DNA from: Bacteroidales bacterium
Lineage (GTDB): Bacteria; Bacteroidota; Bacteroidia; Bacteroidales; P3
DNA length: 64,000 bases
Direction: 5' to 3'
Assembly: GCA_031257915.1 (NCBI GenBank)
Contig: JAIRNR010000003.1
Coordinates: 7,670 to 71,669, forward strand
This document shows, piece by piece, positions 1 to 37,332 of the stretch. Below the pieces are notes generated by a model. The model saw nothing but the letters and a program-made list of their open reading frames with translations. It was not told the origin of the DNA and did not search any database. Positions within the stretch are counted from its first letter, which is position 1; each line of letters starts with the position of its first letter. The position numbers were made by a program, and so were the translations under genes.

Positions 1-106
1 CATGTTCTACCGAGATTACTCCGCTAATGTCCATATATCCGCCGTATTCCGCGTTATACCATTTAGCGGTAAATTTTCTTCCGTTTAATTTCATTAAGTT
101 TTTCAT
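1..106 (-). CDS. hypothetical protein, 5' part only (gene continues beyond the left window edge)
   Basis: Minus-strand frame is open from ATG at 106..104 (MKNLMKLNGRKFTAKWYNAEYGGYMDISGVISVEH...) to position 1. Absent from the ORF track because it is truncated. No family recognised. Confidence 0.35.
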   Translation of the reverse strand, partial: MKNLMKLNGRKFTAKWYNAEYGGYMDISGVISVEH

Positions 107-118
107 AGATTTATGTTT

Positions 119-358
119 TTAGAGATTATTATTTGTAAGAGCATACGTTATCTTAAATCCCTGCGGGTCACAACCTCTAAGGATGTGTTGCCGCTTCTTG
201 TATTGAAGCAACGCAAACGGTCCGCGTTCAATCTCGCGCCCAAGATAAAACAGTGCGCCAATATCGCTCTTTCGCTTGTCGTGCGGCATGTTCGGTATGT
301 AACCATACTTCCTATGGTAACCAAACTGTTGTTCCTGTGTTATAGGTGTAGATTTCAT
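119..358 (-). CDS. hypothetical small protein of the integrated element
   Basis: 79-aa ORF packed head-to-tail with the neighbouring minus-strand small genes. No recognisable motif. Confidence 0.35.
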   Translation of the reverse strand: MKSTPITQEQQFGYHRKYGYIPNMPHDKRKSDIGALFYLGREIERGPFALLQYKKRQHILRGCDPQGFKITYALTNNNL

Positions 359-360
359 AT

Positions 361-771
361 CTATTTTTGCTTTGCGGCTTCTATTAAAAAATCAATTTCA
401 CTGTCAGTGATCTTGAGTCTTAATGCGCGTTTCAGGGTTATTGCGCCTTTACGCCCCAGCTGGCTAACGACGCATTCATATATCCGTATATCGCCCAATT
501 TTTCATATAAGCACAATAATCCACCACACAAATCTTCGATTTCCTTATTGTGCTTTTTAATTAGTTCGCTGTGGGTGTCGAGGTGCGTACCCATTTCAAT
601 AGGGAAGTCCTTGCGGATGTTTTCCGCCATTTTTTCAAAATCGCCGCGAAAACATTCGGCGAAGTAGCCGTCCATTTCAATCAGCGACTTGATTGCTGCG
701 ATTTCTTCTTCTTTTGTCTTTGTTTTCATATTTTTTTTTATTTTAGTTATCTTTATTGTCTTTATTGTCAC
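361..771 (-). CDS. hypothetical protein of the integrated element (more likely start is the internal Met at 729)
   Basis: 136-aa ORF. The internal start MKTKTKEEE at about 729 removes the overlap with the upstream gene. Same strand and tight packing with its neighbours. Confidence 0.45.
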   Translation of the reverse strand: MTIKTIKITKIKKNMKTKTKEEEIAAIKSLIEMDGYFAECFRGDFEKMAENIRKDFPIEMGTHLDTHSELIKKHNKEIEDLCGGLLCLYEKLGDIRIYECVVSQLGRKGAITLKRALRLKITDSEIDFLIEAAKQK

Positions 772-1051
772 GCATTAACTGCATTGCGTGATTATAATCG
801 CATTTTACCTTTCGTCCCATCTGGATGATAGCAGGCTCAATCCATCCCTCTTTGCGGTATAACCAGAACTGAGTCGGCGATATATCAAGTGCGCGACATA
901 TATTAGAGACTCCGTGAACATAACGCTTTTTGTTATTTTGCGTAATATTGCTACCCTGTAATGCCGCCGATATTTCCCTGCGGACAACACTTTTAATCTC
1001 ATCCATTAACCCATCAACTGGCAGTGATATTGATATTACACTATTATTCAT
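743..1051 (-). CDS. excisionase-like / MerR-AlpA type helix-turn-helix DNA-binding protein
   Basis: The segment VSNICRALDISPTQFWLYRKEGWIEPAIIQMGRKVKCD resembles the HTH_17/excisionase pattern (HTH followed by a 'G-R-K/R-hydrophobic' wing). It lies in an integrase-bearing element. Confidence 0.5.
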   Translation of the reverse strand: MNNSVISISLPVDGLMDEIKSVVRREISAALQGSNITQNNKKRYVHGVSNICRALDISPTQFWLYRKEGWIEPAIIQMGRKVKCDYNHAMQLMRDNKDNKDN

Positions 1052-1242
1052 AATAGCCCCTCCCTTCTCATTATCTCATCAGCTTCTTTGCGCATTTTCC
1101 ATGCGCGAATGGTCTCACTCTTTTCCAGCATATAAGACACCGTAAATATTGGCATGCCGTGTTTTTGGCTCAGCTCAGTCGCTACGCCACGAGGATACCT
1201 TCTCTCTTTGTGTTCCTTTGTTCTTTTTTGTTTTTTTTTCAT
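1048..1242 (-). CDS. small basic protein, hypothetical (start taken at the internal Met)
   Basis: MKKKQKRTKEHKERRYPRGVATELSQKHGM... has a 4-nt overlap with the downstream gene. An A9 tract directly follows the ATG (plus-strand T9 at 1231-1239). Confidence 0.4.
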   Translation of the reverse strand: MKKKQKRTKEHKERRYPRGVATELSQKHGMPIFTVSYMLEKSETIRAWKMRKEADEIMRREGLL

Positions 1243-1376
1243 TATATTTGTTTTTTTATTTGTGTTACTAATAATCAAAATTAAGTAAGCATAAAAATCA
1301 ATACGCAAAATTAAACAAAAATAAACAAAAAAACAAATAGTTTATATCATATTGTATATCAGTTAATTATTTTATT

Positions 1377-1751
1377 ATGGAAACTCCACAACAGCGACTG
1401 AACAAGGTTTTAGTCCATTTAAAGATGGATAAATCCAATCTATCAAAGGAATTGGGCAGTCATCCCATGACGCTTCAAAGTATCTCTAATGGAAGAAATA
1501 AGAAGATTACCCCCAAAGTAGCGGAAAAAATAGTCGCAAAGCACCCCGAAATAAATTACGAGTGGCTTGTAACAGGCACAGGTAATATGCTTGTCAATAA
1601 AGGCGAAGTAAGTAACAGTATTATTGGCGATGGTAATGGGCATAGAATATCCCCCGATAATAGTGATAGATGGATTTCGTTATTAGAGAATAAGGATAAG
1701 CAGATAGACAAGTTAATATCACTGCTTGAAAAAGCACAAAATTCTAAATAA
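1377..1751 (+). CDS. XRE/Cro-CI-like helix-turn-helix regulator of the element
   Basis: LNKVLVHLKMDKSNLSKELGSHPMTLQSISNGRNKKITPKVAEKI is an HTH_3-like layout. The gene is divergent from the minus-strand gene block, a repressor-like position. Confidence 0.6.
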   Translation: METPQQRLNKVLVHLKMDKSNLSKELGSHPMTLQSISNGRNKKITPKVAEKIVAKHPEINYEWLVTGTGNMLVNKGEVSNSIIGDGNGHRISPDNSDRWISLLENKDKQIDKLISLLEKAQNSK

Positions 1752-1759
1752 ATAAAACA

Positions 1760-2263
1760 ATGAAGAATAAATTACTGTTAGCGTTTATCGGGCTACTTAT
1801 CTATGGTGCTATTTCCGCGCAAGACACTATTAGAGATCCATACAACTCATCTTATATAAGAATAAACTATGATGGTTTTTCCATTATATCCCACGATGAA
1901 CCGCAAATCAAACCCTTTGACGGTGGCATAGATGACGCTATCAATACGTTTTTAGAATCTGCAAAAAGACAATTAGGCGGAAGAAATAGATATAATGAGA
2001 TAAATAAAGATTATATACGTTTTTCTGAGCAAAAATACTGCTACCTGCAAGACATAGACAGAATTACGATACATAAAAGAGAACGTAGTACTTATATTGG
2101 CAAACATAAAAAAGAATACGGTTACTACGTTATTAAATTCAGAAATCCTGTAACAGACAGAGAGGATGTATTGGAGTTTGCCTTGAGCCAAAAAAGTACA
2201 GCAGAAAATGTTTTTTCGGCATTGGTGCTTCTCATTAAAAACGCAAAGGGTATAACGCAATGA
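1760..2263 (+). CDS. secreted hypothetical protein (element cargo)
   Basis: N-terminal signal peptide MKNKLLLAFIGLLIYGAISAQ. No family recognised. Confidence 0.5.
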   Translation: MKNKLLLAFIGLLIYGAISAQDTIRDPYNSSYIRINYDGFSIISHDEPQIKPFDGGIDDAINTFLESAKRQLGGRNRYNEINKDYIRFSEQKYCYLQDIDRITIHKRERSTYIGKHKKEYGYYVIKFRNPVTDREDVLEFALSQKSTAENVFSALVLLIKNAKGITQ

Positions 2264-2287
2264 TGATACGTAAACAAAGTTTAATAT

Positions 2288-2794
2288 ATGAAAAAGATAT
2301 TATTATTTACATTCGTCGCAACGGCAATATTATTCGCCTGCGAAAAAGAGAAGCCACAAAAAGATAAACAACCCAATTATCTATACGGCACACATTGGCA
2401 GCAGGATTCGGTTGCTGCTAATATTTTTTGGCAATACGATACCTCATCTTCATTGTATTTTATAACAGAGGATAAGGTGGTACACACCCGAATGATATTG
2501 GTGGATACGGCGGGTCGAGGCTTCGGCTATTACACGGTGATGACCGACACCGTTAAATATCGAATAATAGAAACGATTGATACTACGAGTCAAACATTTT
2601 ACATTGAGGGGTATTATCACAGGCAGATACATCCATTCCGCAACGATTACACAAAAATTGATACGGCTTATCTCTGTGTATTAGATATACAGAAAGAGCG
2701 ATTACGGAAATCTGTTACCACGTACATAATACTGTCTTCGTATGACAGGAACGCACAATATTGGCCATGGGTGTTCTACAGAAAAAAGCAGTAG
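2288..2794 (+). CDS. putative lipoprotein (element cargo)
   Basis: Signal peptide with lipobox LFAC. A decayed second copy lies at 6625-6973. Confidence 0.55.
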   Translation: MKKILLFTFVATAILFACEKEKPQKDKQPNYLYGTHWQQDSVAANIFWQYDTSSSLYFITEDKVVHTRMILVDTAGRGFGYYTVMTDTVKYRIIETIDTTSQTFYIEGYYHRQIHPFRNDYTKIDTAYLCVLDIQKERLRKSVTTYIILSSYDRNAQYWPWVFYRKKQ

Positions 2795-2798
2795 CGCA

Positions 2799-4079
2799 AT
2801 GCCGATAAAACGTCACGAGCAATTCATTCCTGACACAGAGAAAGGCAATGCCGCAGACGGCAAATTGCGCTACCGTATCCGATGGGGGCGCAATATCGTT
2901 AATTTCAATCTCGGATACAGGGTAGAGTTTAAGAAGTGGAGTTATGATACGCAGCGGTGCAAGAATGGCACAACGCATGGAAAAAGGAAAATATCCGCCG
3001 CGATTATAAACAGGGCGATAAATAAATTTGAGCGGGCGACGGAACATGTTTTTAATTCTTTTGAGATTAAGGGCAAAATGCCCGATTTGCCGTCCTTTCG
3101 CGCGGAGTTTAATAAATGTATTGGGCGGACAAAAACAGTTCCGCAAATCGCGCCAGATAACTTTTTCGGTATATGGGATGAATTCCAAAAAACAATGGGC
3201 AATAAAAATAATTGGACTGTTGCAACGTATGCAAAGTTTCGTTCTATATTGAGGCACATAAAAGAGTATGACAGGAATACAAGCATTGATGATATAGATG
3301 ATAATTACCTGCAGGGATTTGTGTCTCATCAATTGACAGTGCCGCTGCGGAATAGCACGATACAAAAAAACCTTTCTTTCGTGCGGTGGTTTCTGCGATG
3401 GGCATACAATAATGATTATTATAAAGGAAAGTCGCACGAGACGTTCCGTCCTCGATTGAAAGGTGCTACGGGTAATGTCCGCACGGTGGTGTATCTTACA
3501 TGGCAAGAGTTGCAGCATTTATACTCTTTTCGTTTTTCGCGGCAGTGTCTTGAACAGGTGAGGGATGTTTTTTGTTTTTGTTGTTTTACCGGACTGCGTT
3601 ATTCAGACGTAAAGAAACTCCGCAAGACGGATATAAGAGATAAATATTTTGATGTCGTAACGCAAAAGACGGCAGAGGCATTGAGGATAGAGTTTAATAA
3701 TTTCAGTAAGACAATAATAAATAAATATTGGAACGAGCCACTGAAAAATGATTGCGCGTTACCCGTTATCAGTAATGCTAAAATGAATTTATTCCTCAAG
3801 GATATGGCGCGTATTGCGGGAATTGACAGTCCGCAGAGAATGGTATATTTTACGGGGAGTACTCGGCATGAAGACGTGTATCCGAAGTGGCAGTTAATAA
3901 CGACGCACTGCGGCAGGCGTACTTTTATCGTCAATGCGTTATATCTGGGCATTAGCGCGGAAGTTGTAATGAAGTGGACGGGTCACGCGGATTATAAGGC
4001 GATGAAACCATATATTGAGATTGTGGACTCGCTAAAAGAAAGGGAAATGATGAAGTTTAATAGTTTTATTCCTGATTAG
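2799..4079 (+). CDS. tyrosine-type site-specific recombinase / integrase (Bacteroidetes phage-integrase family)
   Basis: C-terminal catalytic-domain pattern: CFTGLRYSDV (Arg I), HCGRRTF (His-x-x-Arg), WTGHADYKAMKPY (His/Tyr region). Start set at the MPIKRHEQF Met at 2799, just after the stop of the upstream gene. Confidence 0.9.
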   Translation: MPIKRHEQFIPDTEKGNAADGKLRYRIRWGRNIVNFNLGYRVEFKKWSYDTQRCKNGTTHGKRKISAAIINRAINKFERATEHVFNSFEIKGKMPDLPSFRAEFNKCIGRTKTVPQIAPDNFFGIWDEFQKTMGNKNNWTVATYAKFRSILRHIKEYDRNTSIDDIDDNYLQGFVSHQLTVPLRNSTIQKNLSFVRWFLRWAYNNDYYKGKSHETFRPRLKGATGNVRTVVYLTWQELQHLYSFRFSRQCLEQVRDVFCFCCFTGLRYSDVKKLRKTDIRDKYFDVVTQKTAEALRIEFNNFSKTIINKYWNEPLKNDCALPVISNAKMNLFLKDMARIAGIDSPQRMVYFTGSTRHEDVYPKWQLITTHCGRRTFIVNALYLGISAEVVMKWTGHADYKAMKPYIEIVDSLKEREMMKFNSFIPD

Positions 4080-4145
4080 TCCCCGATACGAAAAACGGGG
4101 ACTAAAATAGCGTGGCGTAATAAATCCCAATGAACCCTAATGAAT

Positions 4146-4234
4146 GAAAAATGTAAAATTTTAATAACTTTGCCGTCAAATAAACTGTAATAAATCCTAA
4201 TGAACAATGGGGCGCAGTGCGTTATGCTCCACAA
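4146..4234 (+). repeat. about 88-bp direct repeat, copy 1 of the prs-upstream segment (partner at 6990-7074)
   Basis: GAAAAATGTAAAATTTTAATAACTTTGCCGTCAAATAAACTGTAATAAATCCTAA...GCTCCACAA appears at both places with a few substitutions and a 5-nt indel. Confidence 0.8.
4165..4172 (+). promoter_or_regulatory. Bacteroidetes -7 box TAACTTTG (duplicated copy of the prs promoter box)
   Basis: Matches the TAnnTTTG consensus and is identical to the box at 7009-7016. Confidence 0.4.
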
Positions 4235-4267
4235 ACGAAAAATACTGCAAATACAGCAGCAACAAAG

Positions 4268-4299
4268 GAAAGACGGCAGATTTTAGCCGTCTTTTTTAT
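4268..4299 (+). terminator. rho-independent terminator
   Basis: AAGACGGC-agatttta-GCCGTCTT hairpin followed by a T6 run. Confidence 0.55.
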
Positions 4300-4479
4300 T
4301 GCCCGTTTTTGCAAGAAAAAATGAAAATTGTACCTTTGGAGTGAAAAATCGCAATTTTTTCGCAATTATTTTTAAGAAGGCAAAATCATGGCTACTTGGA
4401 ATAGATTTAACAAATTTTATTGTAGAGGCGGGCAAAACAAAAACTGCGACCGCAACGAAAAGAGATTATTAAAATATAA

Positions 4480-4758
4480 CTACAATTTAAGCAGTTCGGA
4501 ATGTGTGCCTGTGCGCACCGCTGTTAGTATCAATTCTTTTGAGTTAAGCATATATATCAAAAGCCAATCCGTCTCTATATGACACTCCCTGAATCCTTTA
4601 TAGTTTCCTTCAAGTTGATGGTCCTTATACTTTAAATCCAACTTCTTCCCCGCCGCTATAGTTGAGATAACGTCTCGTAAGACGTCTTCTGACTTTCCTT
4701 GTTTTATGATTTTACGAAAATCCTTTTTGAATTGATGTGTGAAGACAACCCTGTACAA
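4480..4758 (-). CDS. yafQ: type II toxin, YafQ/RelE-family mRNA interferase
   Basis: YKDHQLEGNYKGFRECHIETDWLLIYMLNSKELILTAVRTGTHSELL closely parallels the E. coli YafQ signature YKDHPLQG..YRDAHVEPDWILIYK...RTGTH. Confidence 0.85.
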   Translation of the reverse strand: MYRVVFTHQFKKDFRKIIKQGKSEDVLRDVISTIAAGKKLDLKYKDHQLEGNYKGFRECHIETDWLLIYMLNSKELILTAVRTGTHSELLKL

Positions 4759-4761
4759 TTA

Positions 4762-4998
4762 TTATTTTTTTAAAGCGTTAAACATTTCCTCAACAGAGTT
4801 AAAAGGCTCACTGACATTTCTGTTCAACATGGCGTCATTCATCGCAGAAACAGTTGTTGAATTAAATTCTTTGTTCGCTGTCTTCTCTGTTGAATTGATA
4901 ATATCCCTGATAAGGCGCGTTCTGTCTTTCTCGGATAGCCGATACACCATATCTCTTACAGCGTTATAGTTTGAATATTGCTGTGCCAATGTTCCCAT
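4762..4998 (-). CDS. putative cognate antitoxin
   Basis: 78-aa ORF 3 nt upstream of the toxin gene on the same strand. A TATATTTG -7 box lies upstream on the minus strand (about 5050-5065). Confidence 0.55.
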   Translation of the reverse strand: MGTLAQQYSNYNAVRDMVYRLSEKDRTRLIRDIINSTEKTANKEFNSTTVSAMNDAMLNRNVSEPFNSVEEMFNALKK

Positions 4999-5103
4999 GA
5001 TTGTTTGAGGTTATTTATGGTTTTAGTTGTAGTTTGATTGTATTTTAGTTGCACAAATATACGAAAATATGTAAAAAACACGAAAGTTTGTGCTTTTGGG
5101 TGC

Positions 5104-5305
5104 AGGGCAAACCTTAAGTTTACAGTGAAATAAAAACTGGGGGTTAAATTTTTACTTTTGTTGTATTAAAGTAAGAAATTAACCAACTAACAGAGGTAAA
5201 CTATCAGGTATTTATAACACTTATTCTTTAATGAAAATTTATAAAGATTTGCGGTTGTAATTTATTTGTTATCAGCAAATAAACTTGTTTAAATGCGTTA
5301 GCCCT
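5104..5305. repeat. MITE-like repeat, long variant (arm AGGGCAAACCTTAAG at 5104-5118, inverted arm TTTAAATGCGTTAGCCCT at 5288-5305)
   Basis: The right-hand ~95 bp are about 85-90 percent identical by eye to the element at 37224-37332. The left arm matches the arms at 37765 and 50475. Confidence 0.6.
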
Positions 5306-5475
5306 GATCCTTTTGCGTTTCTTTGATATTTTTTATTCTTTTTTCATTATATTTGTTTTTTATTTGTATTACGAATAAGCAAAATCAAGCAAATATAAAA
5401 ATCAATACGCAAAATCAAACAAAAACAACCAAAAAAGCAAATAGTTTGTATTGTACATCAATTAATTATTTTATT

Positions 5476-5613
5476 ATGGAAACTCCACAACAGCGACTGG
5501 ATAAGGTTTTAGTCCATCGATAATAGCGATAGATGAATTTCGCTATTAGAGAATAAGGATAAACAGATAGACAGGATAATATCGCTACTTGAAAAAGCAC
5601 AAACTTTTAAATA
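5476..5613 (+). pseudogene. remnant of the XRE-like regulator gene (internal ~230-bp deletion removes the HTH)
   Basis: METPQQRLDKVLVH is identical in style to the 1377 gene, then reaches a premature stop. The 3' end (…LLEKAQ…K*) is retained out of context. Confidence 0.75.
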
Positions 5614-5614
5614 A

Positions 5615-6622
5615 ATGAATATGATAGCGTCAACACTGCAATCTCTCGCACAAAAATCGCGTGAGTATAACAGCTACATGAAAACAGAAGAGGCAACTAA
5701 AACGGTGCTTGTATTGCCATTCATCCAAGCGTTAGGATGGGATATTTTCAATCCTAAGGAATTAATACCCGAAATGGTTATAGATAAAAGGAAAGGCGAT
5801 AAGATTGATTATACCATAATGCTGAATGATAAACCCGCTATACTTATAGAATGTAAGCAGTGCGGCGCAAATTTATCACTGTATTACGGACAGATACGGA
5901 ATTATTTCTATATGTCGGAGGCAAGGCTTGGAATACTTACTAATGGGATAATATATCAATTTTACACCGACTTAGACAGAGATAACGTAATGGACGACAA
6001 ACCATTCTTTGAATTTAATTTATTGAATATGAGTAATAGCGATGTTGAATATCTCACACATTTTCAAAAAACAAAATTCAGTATAGATCATTTTGCGGAA
6101 TTAAAAACAATAAATACAATTAAACAGGTAGCGCAAAGGGAATTTAATAATCCAAGTCGCGAATTTGTGCAACTGCTCTGCCGGTCGGTATCCACATTCA
6201 CAGTGAAAGAGGCAGCGAAATATTCAGCGTTTGTGAAAATAGCGATAAACGACATTATTGGATGTGCTATTCCGCCACCGCGCCAATTAGAAGAAAAATT
6301 AATAAATATTAAATTACAGGCGTTTGACATAATAAAGTCCATTTTAAGTAAGATAGTTAACCCTGATGAGATGGCGTACAATGATAATATTTCTCATTTT
6401 TCAATACGCATAAACAGTGAGAAAAATATTAAAAAAGAATGGATATGCAGACTGTATTTTAATGATAATGGAAAACGAAACCTTGTCTTCAAGCTCGACC
6501 CAAATATCCCGCGCGTCGGAACGAACAATAGCAAGAAACTTGATAGCATAAAACTTAAAGATATTGATGACATAAGAAGATATTCCGACAGAATAATAAT
6601 GGAAGCCAAAAAATATATCTGA
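5615..6622 (+). CDS. HsdR-N-terminal-like (restriction endonuclease-fold) domain protein
   Basis: N-terminal TEEATKTVLVLPFIQALGWDIFNPKELIPEMVIDKRKGDKIDYTIMLNDKPAILIECKQ matches my recollection of the HSDR_N_2 / PD-(D/E)xK pattern (D...ExK). It occupies the slot that holds the 1760-2263 cargo gene in copy 1. Confidence 0.55.
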   Translation: MNMIASTLQSLAQKSREYNSYMKTEEATKTVLVLPFIQALGWDIFNPKELIPEMVIDKRKGDKIDYTIMLNDKPAILIECKQCGANLSLYYGQIRNYFYMSEARLGILTNGIIYQFYTDLDRDNVMDDKPFFEFNLLNMSNSDVEYLTHFQKTKFSIDHFAELKTINTIKQVAQREFNNPSREFVQLLCRSVSTFTVKEAAKYSAFVKIAINDIIGCAIPPPRQLEEKLINIKLQAFDIIKSILSKIVNPDEMAYNDNISHFSIRINSEKNIKKEWICRLYFNDNGKRNLVFKLDPNIPRVGTNNSKKLDSIKLKDIDDIRRYSDRIIMEAKKYI

Positions 6623-6624
6623 TT

Positions 6625-6973
6625 ATGAGAAAGGGCATGATATTTACATTCGTTGCAGCAACGTTATTGTTTGCCTGTGAAAAAGAGAAACCGCAAAAAG
6701 ATAAGCAACCTAATTATCTATACGGCACATATTGGCAGCAAGATTCGGTTGCTGCTGAACACTGCGAGTCAAACATTTTACACTGAGGGGTATTATCACA
6801 GGCAGATACATCCGTTTCGTAATGATTACACAAAAATTGATACGGCTTATCTCGGCGTATTAGATATACAGAAAGAGCGATTACGGAAATCTGTTACCAC
6901 GTATATAACGTTTTCTCCGTATGGCAGGAACATACAATATTGGCCATGGGTGTTCTACAAGAAAAAGCAATAA
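6625..6973 (+). pseudogene. frameshifted, internally deleted copy of the 2288-2794 lipoprotein gene
   Basis: The N-terminal frame MRKGMIFTFVAATLLFACEKEKPQKDKQPNYLYGTYWQQDSVAA stops. The C-terminal 70 aa (YYHRQIHPFRNDYTKIDTAYL...WPWVFYKKKQ) continue in another frame. Confidence 0.8.
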
Positions 6974-6989
6974 CGCAAGCCGATAAAAC

Positions 6990-7074
6990 GAAAAATGTAA
7001 AATTTTAATAACTTTGCCGTCAAATAAACTGTAATAAATCCTAACGAAGAAAGGGGCACAGTGCTGCTCCACAA
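6990..7074 (+). repeat. about 85-bp direct repeat, copy 2 (immediately upstream of prs)
   Basis: See 4146-4234. Confidence 0.8.
7009..7016 (+). promoter_or_regulatory. candidate prs promoter -7 box TAACTTTG
   Basis: TAnnTTTG consensus about 70 nt upstream of the prs start. Confidence 0.45.
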
Positions 7075-7085
7075 TCCTGTTATTT

Positions 7086-8027
7086 ATGGTAGAGTCAAAA
7101 GTCAAAATTTTTTCAGGTCGCGCATCACATTATTTAGCGGAAAAAGTCGCTTCCGCTTACGGTGCGAAATTAGGCAAGTCGGATGTTATAACATTCTCGG
7201 ACGGCGAGTTTCAAACATCTTTTGAAGAAAATGTTCGCGGAGACGATATTTTTATCGTTCAATCGACATTTTCGCCAACTGAAAATCTTTTTGAGTTGCT
7301 TATGATGATTGATGCGGCAAAACGCGCTTCGGCACGTAAAATTATAGCCATTATCCCTTATTTCGGCTTTGCCCGTCAAGACCGTAAAGATAAGCCGCGT
7401 GTGCCGATTACGGCAAAACTTATTGCAAATTTGCTTACTGTTGCGGGGGTTTCGCGTATTGTTACAATTGATTTTCACGCCGACCAGATTCAAGGATTTT
7501 TTGAAACTCCGGTAGATCATCTTTATTCATCCTCTCTATTTATTCCTTATCTGCGCAAGCAAAAAATAACCGATTTAATGTTCGCTTCGCCCGATACGGG
7601 AGGAACAAAGCGTGCCGCCCAGTATGCAAAAATTTTTGATACGGGTTTTGCGATTTGTTATAAGCAGCGTTCACGTCCCAATGTTGTAGATAAAATGGAG
7701 TTGATAGGTGAGGTTCAAGGGCAGAATGTTATTTTACTTGACGATATTCTTGATACAGGCAATACGATGGTTAAAGCCGCAGATCTTATCATGAAATACG
7801 GTGCGGCGAGTGTACGCGCAATGGTAACGCATCCTGTTCTTTCTGACGACGCTATTGAAAAAGTTGAGAAGTCGTCAATATCGGAACTTATCGTCAGCGA
7901 CACTATTCCGCTTCGCAGGAAAAGTGAAAAAATAAAAGTGCTTTCCATAGCAGATTTGCTTGCGGAAGTTATAATGCGCGTTGAGAATTGTCAGAGTATT
8001 TCCGATTTATACAGTTTTAAAAAATAG
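7086..8027 (+). CDS. prs: ribose-phosphate pyrophosphokinase
   Basis: KIFSGRASHYLAEKVA..., GEFQTSFEENVRGDDIFIVQS, ARQDRKDKPRVPITAKL and a DTGNT PRPP loop. 313 aa. Confidence 0.95.
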   Translation: MVESKVKIFSGRASHYLAEKVASAYGAKLGKSDVITFSDGEFQTSFEENVRGDDIFIVQSTFSPTENLFELLMMIDAAKRASARKIIAIIPYFGFARQDRKDKPRVPITAKLIANLLTVAGVSRIVTIDFHADQIQGFFETPVDHLYSSSLFIPYLRKQKITDLMFASPDTGGTKRAAQYAKIFDTGFAICYKQRSRPNVVDKMELIGEVQGQNVILLDDILDTGNTMVKAADLIMKYGAASVRAMVTHPVLSDDAIEKVEKSSISELIVSDTIPLRRKSEKIKVLSIADLLAEVIMRVENCQSISDLYSFKK

Positions 8028-15609: not shown

Positions 15610-18600
15610 ATGAAACAAAAGGTAATATTATTATTAACGTTATTGCTTTTCGTGTTGCCGCTGTCGGCACAAAAAACACATTTTTATGATGAGCCGGATG
15701 CGACTTTTCGTTCTGCGGTAGAATTATATTCAAAAGCAAAATACGGCAGTGCGCAAAAGCAGTTTGAATGGGTGCTTAAAAAGTTGCAAAACTCGCAGGG
15801 CAATAAACATGATGGTGCAAATGTTGATTACATGCGCGAAGAAGCGATGTATTATTCTGCAATGTGCAACATAAAACTTTTTCATTCTCATTCCGACGCT
15901 CCGCTTATCCGCTTTTTGCATGAATATCCGCAAAGTTTGCGGATAAACAGTATTTACCTTTCTCTCGGGAACTTTGAATATACGCAAAAACGGTACAAAG
16001 AGACCATAGAATATTATGAAAAAGTAAATACGGATGCTCTTTCTCCTGAGGATAAAAATGAATTTACTTTTCGCAAGGGATATGCTCTTTTTATGCAGAA
16101 AAAATATCTTGACGCTGAAGTACTTTTTTATTCTTTGATTGAAGAAGATATGCGCTATCGTGTAGTTTCAACGTATTACTACGCATACTGTCTGTATGTA
16201 CAGGAGAAATATCAAAGTGCGCGTACCGAGTTTGAAAAGATAGAAGACGACCCTTCTTTCGCAACAATTATTCCCTATTTTCTTTTGCAGATTGATTATA
16301 AACAGAAGGAATACGATAAGGTGATAGATAAAGGACTTGAACTTTTTTCCGATGCAAAACAGACAAGAAAGATAGAACTTTCGCATTTGATAGGCGACAG
16401 TTATTTGAAAAAAGGTAAGTATCAGGAAGCGTTGCCGTACTTAAAGATGTATGTTTCCCTGTCGCCCGAAAATCCGGATCCTGCCGATAATTATAATCTT
16501 GGGTATGCTTATTTCGGAATAAAAAAATATGATTCCTCCGCATACTTTTTTCAAAAAGTTGCAACGCTTTCCGATACTTCATATCAGCGTTTGATACAGA
16601 GTTCGCTTTACCATTTGGGATATATTTATTCGCAGCAGGATTTGATAAGATTTGCGCAGGAAGCGTTTCGCAGTGCGGCAGATATGGAGAGCGGCAATAC
16701 GGTTTTGCAGGAAGATGCATTTTATAATTATGCAAAACTTGTACATCAAAAGGGGCAGGCAACATATCAGGAAAAGGCAGATGCGTTAAGGGGTTTTCTT
16801 ACAAAGTATCCGTATTCGGTTTATAATAATATTATTCATGCCTATCTTGTGGATGTTCTTATGACGACCCACTCTTACAGAGAAGCACTTGAAACGCTTG
16901 CCGAAATTCCTTATAAAACGGCGGAAATGAAAGAAGCGGAACAGCGTCTTTTCTTTGGCAGAGCGGTTGAACTTTTTAATATTGAAGATTATGAAAGTGC
17001 GTTTGACGCATTTACTTCGTGTGAGAAAAACAGCTATAATGATATTTATACATCGCGTGCAATTTATTGGAAAGGGATGTGTCTTTCCGTTCTTGATAAA
17101 AAGCAGGAAGCGATGGCTGAGTATAATAGATTTTTATCGTTGCCGTCATCTAAAAATACGGAAGAATACGCCTACGCATTGTATTGTATGGGCGTAATTC
17201 AGATGGAACAGAATCAATATGCTGCTGCTGCCTCGCAGTTTAATCGGTTCGTGCTTTTAACGCAAGATTCTGTTTACAGGCGGGACGCTTTAATGAATAT
17301 TGCCGATTGCAAATTTATGCTTAAACAGTACAATACGGCTTTTGACGATTACGATAAGGCTATGGTTGCCGACGACGGTCGAAACGATTATGCTTTATAT
17401 CAGCAGGCGTTATGCTCCGGTGCAATGGCAAAATATGCACAAAAAATTTCTTTATTGAAAAAAGTAAATGTTTCAAGTTCGTTGATGCCGCAGGTATTAA
17501 GTGAACTCGGTGCAACCGAAATGCTGCTTGAGAATAATGTTAAGGCGGAAGACGCTTTCAGCGGACTTATTCGTGAGTATCCCAATCATCCTCTCGTGAA
17601 AAATGCTTATATGAAAATAGGCATGATGTATTTTAATGAAGGTAAAAATAAAGAGGCGTTGGAATATTTTAAAAAAGTGATAGAAAAATATCAGGGAACT
17701 TCGGAAGCGAAACAATCGCTGCTTACGCTGAAGAATATCTACATTGCAATGAATAAGCCTGACGAATTTTTTGATTATGCGAAAAAAATGTCGGGTGTGA
17801 AAATAGATGAACAGGAGCAGGATTCCATCCTTTATTTAGCGGCGGAAAATATTTATTTTGAAGGAAACTTTAGCGAGGCGGCAAAATCATTTACAAAATA
17901 TATTGAGCAGTTTCCGAAAGGATTTTTTGTTGTTGAAGCATTACATTCGCTTGCCGATTGCGCAGTTCGTACAAACGATGGAAATCTTGCGAAAAGCACT
18001 TATCAAAAATTGGCAAATATTCCCGCAACGCCTTATACGGAGCAAGCTACTATAACTGTTGCAGGCATGGAGTTTTCAGATAAAAATTTCACTGCTGCAC
18101 TTGAAAATTATACACGTTTGCGCTCTATTGCAAGCACGCCGGCTAATGCGCTTTTGGCACAAACAGGAATTATGCGTTCGTATGTGCAGATGGATAGAAA
18201 GAAAGAGGCAGTTGACGAAGCGCAGATATTACTTAAAATGGATAGACTGTCGGACAATCAAAAAGACGAGGCGAATATTACTATTGCACGTCTTTCGCGT
18301 CAGATGGGCGATAATGAACTGAGCGACGATTCATATATGCGTCTTACCTCGTCTAAAAATCCGAATTATCAAGCGGAAGCACGTTATATTTTAATAGAGG
18401 GTATGGTGCGGGACGGCTTACTTGTGGAAGCGGAACAGAAGATTGTTGACTATATTTCGGATGCGCCGGGCAATGATGAATATCTTGCAAAGATGTTTAT
18501 TCTTTGGTCGGATATTTATTTTCAGCGTGGAAATTTTTTGCAGGCAAAACAGACATTACGGAGTGTAATTGATAATTATGATGATGGGGACGATAGTGAT

Positions 18601-33890: not shown

Positions 33891-34499
33891 TTAAATACTC
33901 ACAAAATATTTATCCGTATTTATCAAATAGAAATCAACATCATTGATTTTATCAAATTTATAGATATTCTCTATTGTCGTGTTTATCGCTGACTGTGATG
34001 TTTTCTCTAATAAAAATGTCCAAAATATAATTATGGTATAATTTTTACTTGAATCTGATTTTATTTCGTTATAAATTTTGGCGTAATCATACAACTTTAT
34101 TGGTATCGTGTCTGTTTCAACGGCTGTTGCAGGTAAGAAACACGAAAATCTGTTATCGGTATTCCAGTCAATACGTGTAAATTTTCCTTTTGCAAAACAA
34201 TTATTATGATAAGATTTCAATATATTTTTTTCAAAATATAATATTTGAACAGGCTGTCCTAAAAGATGCCTCTGTTGGGCATTTCTTCCTGAATTGATAA
34301 TCTGTTTGTATTGGGTTGAGTCACTAATAAGAGAAACAAAATGTATTTGTTTTTTTATTTTTGAGATACTGTTTGCATATTTATCTTCATCAAAATAACT
34401 TATTTCATGAACTCCGTAAATTTTAGACATCAGTACAGAACAACCTGAAAATAGAATAACTGCTATAATCATTAACAGTAATGTTTTTATTCTGTTCAT
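33891..34499 (-). CDS. hypothetical lipoprotein
   Basis: Lipobox ILFSGCS. No family recognised. AT-rich. Confidence 0.5.
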   Translation of the reverse strand: MNRIKTLLLMIIAVILFSGCSVLMSKIYGVHEISYFDEDKYANSISKIKKQIHFVSLISDSTQYKQIINSGRNAQQRHLLGQPVQILYFEKNILKSYHNNCFAKGKFTRIDWNTDNRFSCFLPATAVETDTIPIKLYDYAKIYNEIKSDSSKNYTIIIFWTFLLEKTSQSAINTTIENIYKFDKINDVDFYLINTDKYFVSI

Positions 34500-37223: not shown

Positions 37224-37332
37224 CAGGGCTAACGCGTTTATAATGCTTATTCTTGATGAAAATTTATAAAAATTTGCGTTTGTAATTTATTCGTTATCAA
37301 CAAATTAACTTGTTTAAATGTGTTGACCCTCG
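37224..37332. mobile_element. MITE-like element (~105 bp) with imperfect 17-18 bp terminal inverted repeats and a 9-bp target duplication
   Basis: Arms AGGGCTAACGCGTTTATA (37225-) and TTTAAATGTGTTGACCCT (-37330). TTGTAGTTG flanks both ends (37215-37223 and 37333-37341). No ORF inside. Confidence 0.7.

What the first reader, a model, noticed from the sequence alone, without database searches (positions are those of the whole stretch)
1..7075. Tandem arrangement upstream of prs: intact integrase element, TA module, then a decayed second copy with a clean integrase deletion
Two collinear copies of the same module (small basic gene start, XRE-like regulator, cargo, lipoprotein) are visible. Copy 1 (to about 4135) is intact and ends with a tyrosine recombinase. 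Copy 2 (5306-6988) has three lesions:
- The regulator carries a ~230-bp internal deletion.
- The lipoprotein gene is frameshifted and internally deleted.
- The whole integrase interval (2815-4146 in copy 1) is missing, with the junction ...CCGATAAAACG|AAAAATGTAAAATTTT.

Each copy is followed by the same ~85-88 bp segment (4146-4234 and 6990-7074). That segment carries a TAACTTTG -7 box, and the second copy of it sits directly in front of prs. A 19-bp string GTAATAAATCCYAAYGAAS occurs three times (4117, 4187, 7031) and is a candidate att core. So either the element duplicates the prs promoter region on integration, or its right end supplies an outward promoter that now drives prs.
Basis: partly seen in the sequence, partly recalled or inferred. 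Interest (0 to 1): 0.6.

Follow-up and report, generated by a model that had tools for sequence, protein, structure and literature searches.

The report
Stacked prophage remnants between tRNA-Ala and prs
Three mobile elements (an intact phage of about 46 kb or more, a gutted island, a gutted second phage) are stacked at the 3' end of a tRNA-Ala gene that in relatives sits 3-17 bases before the single-copy gene prs; this is an ordinary integration hotspot, except that prs must now be transcribed from phage-derived DNA.

Summary
Two collinear copies about 90% identical, three deletions in copy 2 (236, 158 and 1334 bp) and a shared ~85-bp tail are all confirmed.

The interpretation needs correcting.
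- Two relatives have an empty site. There tRNA-Ala(GGC) lies 3 nt (L191) or 17 nt (G001) before the prs ATG, with none of this DNA present.
- In this genome the tRNA sits on another contig (C87), followed by phage late genes.
- The inferred order is: tRNA-Ala, prophage P1 (at least 46 kb, integrase at its right end), displaced tRNA 3' end (4220-4234), remnant of an unrelated tRNA-targeting island with a YafQ/RelE pair, a composite MITE scar, the lysogeny-module remnant of a second related phage (P2), a tRNA fragment (7065-7074), then prs.
- The 85-bp segment is the phage P arm plus the tRNA-derived core. It is not a bacterial prs promoter.
- The 19-mer is a P-arm repeat, not the core.

The insertion cuts prs off from the tRNA promoter, so prs must be driven from P2-derived DNA.

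This is a new member of a known kind, of modest interest.

The parts
1..4234 (.). Right-hand 4.2 kb of prophage P1. It continues leftwards through C1:1-7669 and, after an assembly gap, C87:34391-1 up to tRNA-Ala.
   Evidence: C1 upstream carries HNH, RecT, an AAA ATPase and an MBL nuclease. C87 carries TerL, portal, major head protein, a 1584-aa tape measure candidate (called from size and position) and endolysin next to tRNA-Ala.
743..1051 (-). DUF3853 small DNA-binding protein, an early-operon gene of P1
   Evidence: Pfam PF12964, E 3e-8
1048..1308 (-). Cro-like small basic gene. Its first ~12-35 codons are the leftmost part retained in copy 2.
   Evidence: ORF list. Homology starts at 1198-1207.
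1377..1751 (+). P1 repressor-like HTH regulator. A TATATTTG box with upstream TTTG lies at 1243-1250.
   Evidence: phrog_2328 transcriptional repressor, E 1.6e-6. Weak HTH_19/HTH_26. Box found.
1760..2263 (+). Cargo of P1: a 167-aa protein with a signal peptide and no family hit
2288..2794 (+). 168-aa lipoprotein (lipobox LFAC), shared by both copies
2790..4079 (+). P1 tyrosine integrase, 429 aa
   Evidence: Phage_int_SAM_5 plus Phage_integrase. phrog_1. Hundreds of 45-64% relatives on Bacteroidales phage contigs.
4075..4106 (.). Inverted pair of GGGGACTAA[AT] motifs (4075-4084 minus strand, 4097-4106 plus strand). A third copy lies in the P' arm beside the tRNA on C87. Candidate arm-type sites.
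   Evidence: Only 6 copies in the 2.5-Mb genome, 3 of them at the two ends of P1.
4117..4205 (+). Two copies of the 19-mer GTAATAAATCCYAATGAAC (4117-4135 and 4187-4205): a P-arm repeat, not the core
4146..4219 (+). Conserved P arm of P1, with the TAACTTTGC box at 4165-4172
   Evidence: 94.7% identical to 6990-7064. Promoter-context score 10.4 bits.
4220..4234 (+). attR core of P1: the displaced 3' end of tRNA-Ala(GGC), CGTTATGCTCCACAA
   Evidence: 15/15 identical to the end of the genome's only tRNA-Ala(GGC), C87 c[34392-34465].
4235..5102 (.). Remnant of a third element (E3), of a different tRNA-targeting island family. It holds a cassette at 4238-4375: terminator hairpin 4269-4294, TACCTTTG 4331-4338, and an integrase start at 4388 that is cut off after a few codons. 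It also holds a TA pair.
   Evidence: The same cassette follows tRNA-Val (C78), tRNA-Pro (C106) and tRNA-Gly or its fragment (C10, C53). In C78 and C53 it precedes a tyrosine integrase of 390+ aa.
4480..4758 (-). YafQ/RelE-family toxin, 92 aa
   Evidence: PF15738, 110 bits. TIGR02385, 84 bits.
4762..4998 (-). Putative antitoxin, 78 aa, with no family hit
   Evidence: Paralogues on C22.
5103..5308 (.). Composite of two MITE families: the left half of a CAGGGCAAACCTTAAG-type element (5103-~5201) joined to the right part of a ~135-bp CAGGGTCAACGCATTTAAA-type element (5202-5308). It has no target-site duplication. It is the scar where E3-side DNA meets the P2 remnant.
   Evidence: About 40 genomic copies of the second family, which carry terminal inverted repeats and ~10-bp duplications elsewhere.
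5309..6989 (+). Remnant of prophage P2's lysogeny module: the cro start, a truncated regulator (5476-5523), an intact 335-aa HSDR_N-domain gene (5615-6622), a frameshifted lipoprotein pseudogene (6625-6973), and the first integrase codons with ATG changed to AGC (about 6974-6989).
6990..7064 (+). P arm of P2, with the TAACTTTGC box (7009-7016) and one 19-mer (7031-7049). Candidate promoter of prs.
   Evidence: It is the only exact TAnnTTTG in the 520 nt before prs. Context score 11.1 bits, the 80th percentile of likely promoters. The TAACTTTGC variant is 5-fold enriched upstream of genes.
7065..7074 (+). attR core of P2: the tRNA-Ala 3' fragment TGCTCCACAA at the ancestral tRNA/prs junction
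   Evidence: Compared with the empty sites L191 and L011.
7086..8027 (+). prs (ribose-phosphate diphosphokinase), single copy in the assembly, followed by nadB
   Evidence: NF002320, 419 bits. Only one tblastn hit in the genome.

Best explanation
The region is the right-hand end of a composite insertion of at least 49 kb at the 3' end of tRNA-Ala(GGC). In related genomes that tRNA gene lies 3-17 nt upstream of prs.

Three elements were added one after another, each restoring the tRNA end and pushing earlier arrivals towards prs.
1. Oldest: temperate phage P2. Only its lysogeny module and right att arm survive.
2. Next: an island of a different family (E3). Only its tRNA-proximal terminator/promoter cassette and a YafQ/RelE pair survive.
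3. Newest: phage P1. It appears intact at about 46 kb or more, with the integrase at its right end.

The order of arrival is inferred from position and decay; it is not shown.

The repeated ~85-bp segment is the phage P arm plus the tRNA-derived crossover core. The 19-mers and the GGGGACTAA motifs are arm repeats. P2 lost its left ~40 kb at a scar now occupied by a hybrid of two MITEs, and lost its integrase by a clean 1334-bp deletion.

Integration separated prs from the tRNA promoter that probably drives it in the empty site. That gene is single-copy and presumably essential. It must therefore now be transcribed from P2-derived DNA. The most likely source is the TAACTTTGC box in the P arm, about 63 nt of leader before the ATG (my estimate about 0.55). 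Read-through from the P2 regulator promoter at 5348 may contribute or be the source instead.
For: Empty sites:
- L191 (Prs 94% identical) joins the C87 flank (XerD-like, MoxR, DUF58, BatA genes) to prs-nadB through tRNA-Ala alone, with 3 nt between the tRNA and the ATG.
- G001/L011 has the same arrangement with 17 nt.

Own genome:
- The only tRNA-Ala(GGC) is on C87. It is followed by endolysin, tail, head, portal and terminase genes.
- The C1 start carries RecT, AAA and HNH early genes, then the repressor and integrase.
- The tRNA 3' end matches 15/15 at 4220-4234 and 10/10 at 7065-7074.
- 3 of the 6 genomic GGGGACTAA[AT] copies lie at the two ends of P1.

E3 and the scar:
- The cassette at 4238-4375 recurs next to four other tRNA genes or fragments, ahead of an integrase.
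- MITE analysis.

Copy comparison:
- About 10% divergence and different cargo.

Promoter:
- The only TAnnTTTG upstream of prs is in the P arm, and it fits the genome's extended consensus.
- No plus-strand terminator lies between 6663 and prs.
- The -7 consensus and typical leader lengths are taken from PMC7366714.
Against:
- At -70 from a start codon, TAnnTTTG is no more frequent than background in this genome.
- There is no -33 TTTG.
- Relatives of the integrase show no general excess of outward boxes.
- C87 and C1 do not overlap at their ends. The continuity of P1 is therefore inferred from synteny with L191 and from matching att ends.
- No close relative of the phage was found anywhere (best integrase 64%). 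The P arm could be compared only between P1 and P2.
- E3 could instead be the left end of P2.
Confidence: 0.85

Rival explanations
1. prs is transcribed by read-through from the P2 lysogeny-operon promoter (TATATTTG at 5348 with an upstream TTTG), through the HSDR_N gene and the lipoprotein pseudogene. The P-arm box is irrelevant, or serves only att function.
For: All genes from 5476 to prs are on the same strand. No plus-strand terminator is predicted after 6663. The 5348 box scores 7.2 bits and has a -33 TTTG. The HSDR_N gene is intact, which suggests the operon is still expressed. P-arm conservation is expected for integrase binding anyway.
Against: When P2 was whole, this would have made an essential gene depend on transcription passing through the integrase gene. 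The P-arm box scores higher (11.1 bits) and lies at a normal leader distance.
Confidence: 0.35
2. The DNA at 4235-5102 is the original left end (P' arm side) of phage P2, not a third element, so only two elements are stacked.
For: It directly follows the hybrid att site, where a tandem-prophage model places the P2 left arm. No separate tRNA fragment marks an E3/P2 border.
Against: It has no similarity to the P1 left arm. The segment 4238-4375 is 86-91% identical to the tRNA-proximal ends of an unrelated integrase-bearing island family at tRNA-Val, tRNA-Pro and tRNA-Gly, including the start of that family's integrase gene.
Confidence: 0.12
3. Copy 2 arose by local segmental duplication of copy 1 followed by decay, or the 85-bp segment is a duplicated bacterial prs promoter.
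For: The layout is collinear and tandem.
Against: The copies differ by about 10% and carry unrelated cargo genes. Each ends in its own tRNA fragment. The empty sites contain no trace of the 85-bp segment.
Confidence: 0.03
4. The arrangement is a chimeric mis-assembly of a metagenome-assembled genome.
For: The genome has 109 contigs and is 86% complete. Repeats (MITEs, cassettes) lie in the region.
Against: The repeats are short and diverged (78-94%). Both outer flanks match one contiguous locus in L191. The att fragments lie exactly where integration predicts.
Confidence: 0.03

Closest known systems
tRNA-gene (tDNA) integrated prophages and genomic islands, including tandem arrays (Islander principle, PMC4383910)
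   Same: A tyrosine integrase, an intact regenerated tRNA at one end, and a displaced 3' tRNA fragment in direct orientation at the other. Several elements are stacked at one tDNA.
   Different: Only P1 keeps its integrase. The inner members are gutted, so a strict Islander tandem call (each member with its own integrase and fragment) would fail. The target tRNA abuts a single-copy, presumably essential protein gene.
Bacteroides phage BV01 (Salyersviridae) integrating between tspO and its promoter (PMC8354205)
   Same: A temperate Bacteroidales phage whose integration separates the adjacent downstream gene from its promoter.
   Different: BV01 silences the non-essential tspO 23-fold. Here the downstream gene is prs, so expression must be maintained, apparently from the phage end. 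The integrase and att site are unrelated to BV01's 25-bp attB, which was not compared here beyond its description.
Cryptic or defective prophages reduced to a lysogeny module with retained accessory genes (for example the E. coli K-12 cryptic prophages; general knowledge)
   Same: Deletional decay that leaves fragments of the regulator, integrase side and accessory genes at the original att site.
   Different: The left breakpoint lies in a hybrid of two MITEs. The retained intact gene is an HSDR_N-domain protein of unknown role.
Primary sigma (sigma-ABfr) promoters of Bacteroidetes: -7 TAnnTTTG, -33 TTTG (PMC7366714 citing Bayley et al. 2000)
   Same: The P-arm TAACTTTGC, with an upstream A/T tract, matches the -7 element and this genome's extended consensus.
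   Different: No -33 TTTG is present, and activity has not been measured.

Membership tests
tDNA-integrated element (Islander criteria) | Intact target tRNA gene at one end | tested here: met
   tRNA-Ala(GGC) at C87 c[34392-34465], directly followed by phage lysis genes.
tDNA-integrated element (Islander criteria) | Displaced tRNA fragment in the same orientation at the other end | tested here: met
   15/15 nt at 4220-4234 for P1 and 10/10 nt at 7065-7074 for P2.
tDNA-integrated element (Islander criteria) | Tyrosine integrase gene inside the element | tested here: met
   P1: 2790-4079, PF13102 plus PF00589, phrog_1. In P2 only about 8 codons remain.
tDNA-integrated element (Islander criteria) | Empty site in related genomes | tested here: met
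   L191 and G001/L011 have tRNA-Ala immediately before prs.
tDNA-integrated element (Islander criteria) | Excision and circle formation | not testable with these tools
Tandem island array (strict sense) | Each member has its own integrase and its own tDNA fragment | tested here: not met
   P2 lacks an integrase. E3 lacks an integrase and has no right-hand fragment. It is a decayed array.
Tailed temperate phage (Caudoviricetes prophage) | Terminase large subunit, portal, major head protein, tail tape measure, endolysin, repressor and integrase | tested here: met
   phrog_2, phrog_64, phrog_29, phrog_7, phrog_2328 and phrog_1. The 1584-aa tape measure candidate was called from size and position only.
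Type II toxin-antitoxin, RelE/YafQ family | RelE/YafQ-fold toxin | tested here: met
   PF15738, 110 bits (cut-off 30). TIGR02385, 84 bits (cut-off 27.9).
Type II toxin-antitoxin, RelE/YafQ family | Recognisable cognate antitoxin (DinJ/RelB type) immediately upstream | tested here: inconclusive
   A 78-aa ORF lies 3 nt upstream with no Pfam, NCBIfam or PADLOC hit.
Bacteroidetes sigma-ABfr promoter | -7 TAnnTTTG | tested here: met
   TAACTTTG at 7009-7016 and 4165-4172. The context score is high.
Bacteroidetes sigma-ABfr promoter | -33 TTTG about 19-21 nt upstream | tested here: not met
   No TTG in the 40 nt upstream. The -33 element is known to be poorly conserved (PMC7366714).
Bacteroidetes sigma-ABfr promoter | Mapped transcription start | not testable with these tools
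MITE | Short, non-coding and multicopy, with terminal inverted repeats and target-site duplications | tested here: met
   About 40 copies of ~135 bp with terminal repeats CAGGGTCAACGCATTTAAA and ~10-bp duplications at other loci. The copy at 5103-5308 is a hybrid without a duplication.

The most novel reading that the evidence does not exclude
In this genus prs starts 3-17 nt after tRNA-Ala(GGC) and probably depends on the tRNA promoter. Any phage using this attB would therefore silence a single-copy, presumably essential gene. The P1/P2 phage lineage may have built a strong host-type promoter (AAAATTTTAATAACTTTGC) into its integrase-proximal att arm. Under this reading, integration swaps the prs promoter rather than destroying it, and promoter replacement is an obligatory part of the design of the attachment site.
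Probability: 0.5. Interest if true: 0.5.

Novelty: new member of a known kind. Interest (0 to 1): 0.3.

Why it matters
This is a clean, fully bounded example of how a tRNA integration hotspot accumulates and erodes mobile elements in an uncultured Bacteroidales lineage. Empty-site relatives define every border. The one point beyond routine annotation is that prs has been cut off from its presumed tRNA-linked promoter and now lies behind phage DNA. If the phage arm carries the replacement promoter, it shows how phages can use attachment sites next to essential genes without killing the host. It also contrasts with phage BV01, which silences its neighbouring gene. The finding also flags a second island family and two MITE families that shape this genome.

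Tried and rejected
- Rfam scan of 4000-7300 at E<=1: no hits. No known RNA family explains the 85-bp segment.
- Exact-pattern scans for the P arm in viral and metagenome contigs: nothing found.
- Integrase relatives in genome, viral and protein collections: the best is 64% identical and none lies next to prs. No third copy of the P arm could be compared.
- Test for a general outward TAnnTTTG downstream of related integrases: 25 of 108 loci on the plus strand against 13 on the minus strand, with about 19 expected. This is not convincing.
- Positional enrichment of TAnnTTTG at -70 from start codons: none.
- A hairpin that pairs a P-arm GGGGC with the displaced GCUCC, resembling the tRNA acceptor stem: z = -1.5 in P2 and +0.3 in P1, so it was dropped as unsupported.
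- The sigma-70 consensus scan is uninformative for Bacteroidetes.
- PADLOC gave no hit for the HSDR_N cargo or the TA pair.
- A contig-end overlap between C87 and C1 was sought and not found.

Full report
**Observation**

blastn of 1-4300 against the rest and a global alignment give these ordered blocks:
- 1198/1207-1418 ~ 5303/5312-5517
- 1655-1753 ~ 5518-5616
- 2304-2421 ~ 6641-6758
- 2580-2811 ~ 6759-6989
- 4146-4220 ~ 6990-7064
- 4225-4234 ~ 7065-7074

Identity is 87-95% overall (about 90% over 989 aligned positions). Copy 2 lacks four intervals:
- 1419-1654 (236 bp, inside the regulator gene)
- 2422-2579 (158 bp, inside the lipoprotein gene)
- 2812-4145 (1334 bp: all of the integrase gene except its first codons, whose ATG is now AGC)
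- four bases, GTTA (4221-4224)

The slot between the regulator and the lipoprotein holds unrelated genes: a 167-aa secreted protein in copy 1 and a 335-aa HSDR_N-domain protein in copy 2. The 19-mer occurs at 4117, 4187 and 7031 and nowhere else.

**What the locus is**

The window is C1:7670-71669 of a 109-contig assembly. A same-genus genome (G001, locus L011) has tRNA-Ala(GGC) ending 17 nt before the prs ATG.

A closer relative was found through its Prs protein (94% identical; L191, about 85% DNA identity). It carries BatA, DUF4381, DUF58, MoxR, a XerD-like gene, tRNA-Ala(GGC), prs and nadB on one 7.7-kb contig. Only 3 nt separate the tRNA from the prs ATG.

blastn of L191 against the window's own genome splits it in two. 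Its left part matches C87:39272-34532 and its right part matches C1:14753-17247. Everything between those points in this genome is therefore an insertion: C87:34391-1, an assembly gap, and C1:1-14744, at least 49 kb in all.

More distant relatives (Prs 76-83% identical, and other genera of the family) have prs in other contexts. The tRNA-Ala/prs junction is thus specific to this small clade.

**Prophage P1**

The genome's single tRNA-Ala(GGC) is at C87 c[34392-34465]. Reading on from its 3' end come:
- a small ORF and an endolysin
- tail genes, including a 1584-aa tape measure candidate (called from size and position only)
- major head protein, portal and large terminase
- primase-type replication genes

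These run up to the contig end. The start of contig C1 carries HNH, RecT, an SMC-like ATPase and an MBL-fold nuclease on the same strand. It runs into the window's cro-like gene, then the divergent repressor (phrog_2328), two secreted or lipoprotein accessory genes, and the integrase.

The last 15 nt of the tRNA region (CGTTATGCTCCACAA) recur exactly at 4220-4234, about 140 nt after the integrase stop. The motif GGGGACTAA[AT] occurs six times in the 2.5-Mb genome. Three of those copies lie within 150 bp of the two ends of P1.

P1 is thus a typical temperate tailed phage of at least 46 kb, integrated at the tRNA 3' end. The contigs do not overlap. Continuity is inferred from the L191 synteny, the matching att ends and the complementary gene content.

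**The 85-bp segment**

Its right 10-15 nt are the tRNA-derived core. The rest (4146-4219 and 6990-7064) lies between the integrase and the core, which is where the P arm of attP sits. Neither empty site contains anything similar. The reading that the element duplicates the prs promoter region is therefore refuted.

The 19-mers lie inside the arm, with two copies in P1. P2 has one, because its other copy went with the integrase deletion. They are arm repeats, not the crossover core.

**Between the copies**

The segment 4238-4375 is 86-91% identical to the DNA that follows tRNA-Val (C78), tRNA-Pro (C106), tRNA-Gly (C10) and a displaced tRNA-Gly fragment (C53). It consists of a hairpin terminator, a TACCTTTG promoter box and the start of a gene. 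In C78 and C53 that gene is a tyrosine integrase of 390+ aa, unrelated in sequence to the P1 integrase.

In the window that gene stops being homologous a few codons after ATGGCTAC (4388). This is therefore the tRNA-proximal end of a third, different island (E3) with its integrase deleted. A YafQ/RelE toxin (4480-4758) and a small upstream partner (4762-4998) follow on the minus strand.

The segment 5103-5308 is a hybrid. The left half belongs to one MITE family and is joined to the right two-thirds of a ~135-bp MITE that has about 40 copies with clear inverted ends and ~10-bp target duplications elsewhere. This copy has no duplication. Its outer end abuts the first base of P2 homology. I read it as the deletion scar that removed the right end of E3, the tRNA fragment between E3 and P2, and the left ~40 kb of P2.

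**P2 and order of arrival**

P2 ends with TGCTCCACAA directly before the short spacer and the prs ATG, which is the ancestral tRNA/prs junction. The 10% divergence and the different cargo show that P2 was a separate phage of the same group, not a local duplication.

Each integration at the regenerated tRNA pushes earlier tenants towards prs. The likely order of arrival is therefore P2, then E3, then P1, which matches the gradient of decay. This order is an inference.

**How prs is expressed**

In L191 there is no room for a promoter between the tRNA and prs. A TATCTTTG box lies 8 nt before the tRNA, and G001 and this genome have TACCTTTG at the same place. Co-transcription of prs with the tRNA in the empty site is therefore the simplest reading; it is inferred, not shown.

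prs is single-copy here, and PRPP synthetase is generally indispensable (general knowledge). After integration the nearest upstream DNA is all phage-derived.

Points in favour of the P-arm box as the promoter:
- The only exact TAnnTTTG in the 520 nt before prs is the P-arm TAACTTTG at 7009-7016. It would give a leader of about 63 nt. Leaders in B. thetaiotaomicron average 52 nt, with a median of 32 nt (PMC7366714).
- A position matrix was built from 246 boxes lying 8-60 nt before long ORFs and compared with 986 boxes inside coding regions. It gives the consensus aAAtttTt..TAacTTTGCa. The P-arm box scores 11.1 bits, the 80th percentile of the likely-promoter set and above every coding-region instance.
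- The exact variant TAACTTTGC makes up 8.0% of upstream-sense boxes, against 1.6% in coding DNA and 3.3% in other intergenic DNA.

Points against:
- There is no -33 TTTG.
- Boxes at -70 are not enriched genome-wide.
- Related integrase loci show no clear excess of outward boxes.
- Read-through from the P2 regulator promoter at 5348 is unobstructed by any predicted terminator.

I put the P-arm promoter at about 0.55 and read-through as sole or main source at about 0.35. The two are not exclusive. In P1 the same box faces the tRNA fragment and the E3 terminator, so it could give only a short orphan transcript, as another first-stage note suggested.

**Comparison with known systems**

This is the standard tDNA-island pattern that Islander uses to find islands: a regenerated tRNA, a displaced 3' fragment and a tyrosine integrase. 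Tandem arrays are recorded there, with 125 tandems of two or more among 3919 islands (PMC4383910). The inner members here fail the strict tandem criterion because their integrases are gone.

Bacteroides phage BV01 integrates between tspO and its promoter and lowers tspO expression 23-fold (PMC8354205). The geometry is the same here, but the downstream gene cannot be switched off.

No close relative of P1 or P2 exists in the collections searched. The best integrase match is 64% identical, and no P-arm match was found.

**Verdict**

The region is an ordinary, well-bounded stack of mobile elements at a tRNA hotspot, a new member of a known kind. It comes with one testable and mildly interesting hypothesis: that the phage arm supplies the prs promoter.

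Noticed in passing
window 4238-4375; G000 C78:1172-1392, C53:1169-1340, C106:24495-24704, C10:14493-14617: A second family of tRNA-targeting islands shares a ~130-bp cassette (hairpin terminator, TACCTTTG promoter, integrase start) placed 7-8 nt after the 3' ends of tRNA-Val, tRNA-Pro, tRNA-Gly and tRNA-Ala. The C78 and C53 integrases differ in their N-terminal halves and are nearly identical in their C-terminal halves, and both contigs end inside the gene. C10 (intact tRNA-Gly plus a partial cassette) and C53 (tRNA-Gly fragment plus a full cassette) look like another stacked site.
   Followed up: partly
window 5103-5308; about 40 other places in G000 (e.g. C15:9105-9208, C18:48108-48211, C73:4675-4780, C1:44906-44993 = window 37237-37324): A ~135-bp MITE with inverted ends CAGGGTCAACGCATTTAAA and ~10-bp target duplications. 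Many copies lie at contig ends, so it probably fragments the assembly. A second family (ends CAGGGCAAACCTTAAG) is seen in C8:250-480 and C64:56287-56400.
   Followed up: partly
L191:4914-4993 and L011 (G001:C50, tRNA at locus 3443-3516, minus strand): In the empty-site relatives the prs start codon lies only 3 nt (L191) or 17 nt (G001) after tRNA-Ala(GGC). This implies a tRNA-mRNA co-transcript and, after 3' processing of the tRNA, an almost leaderless prs mRNA in L191.
   Followed up: no
G000 C87:13442-16586: Inside the P1 head-gene module lies a block of four minus-strand ORFs that begins with a 329-aa tyrosine recombinase (30% identical to the P1 integrase). It ends at an intergenic stretch (16550-16586) that is 95% identical to the P1 cro/repressor intergenic region (window 1303-1339). 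This may be an inserted element or a second regulatory switch.
   Followed up: no
window 7052-7070 and 4208-4230: A P-arm GGGGC(A/G) can pair with the displaced tRNA end (U)GCUCC, giving a hairpin that resembles the tRNA-Ala acceptor stem, including its G-U pair. The folding energy is not significant (z -1.5 and +0.3), so this may be chance or a pair of inverted core-type sites.
   Followed up: partly
G000 C87:6088-6118 versus window 4120-4150: A 31-nt stretch from the P1 P arm (part of the first 19-mer plus CCCTAATGAATGA) recurs at 90% identity in the P1 replication region, in the same orientation. Its meaning is unknown.
   Followed up: no
window 5615-6622: The only intact gene of the P2 remnant encodes a 335-aa protein. 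Its N-terminal region matches HSDR_N (a PD-(D/E)xK nuclease fold), and its C-terminal ~200 aa match nothing in Pfam, NCBIfam or PADLOC. Its retention suggests it is still useful, perhaps in defence.
   Followed up: partly
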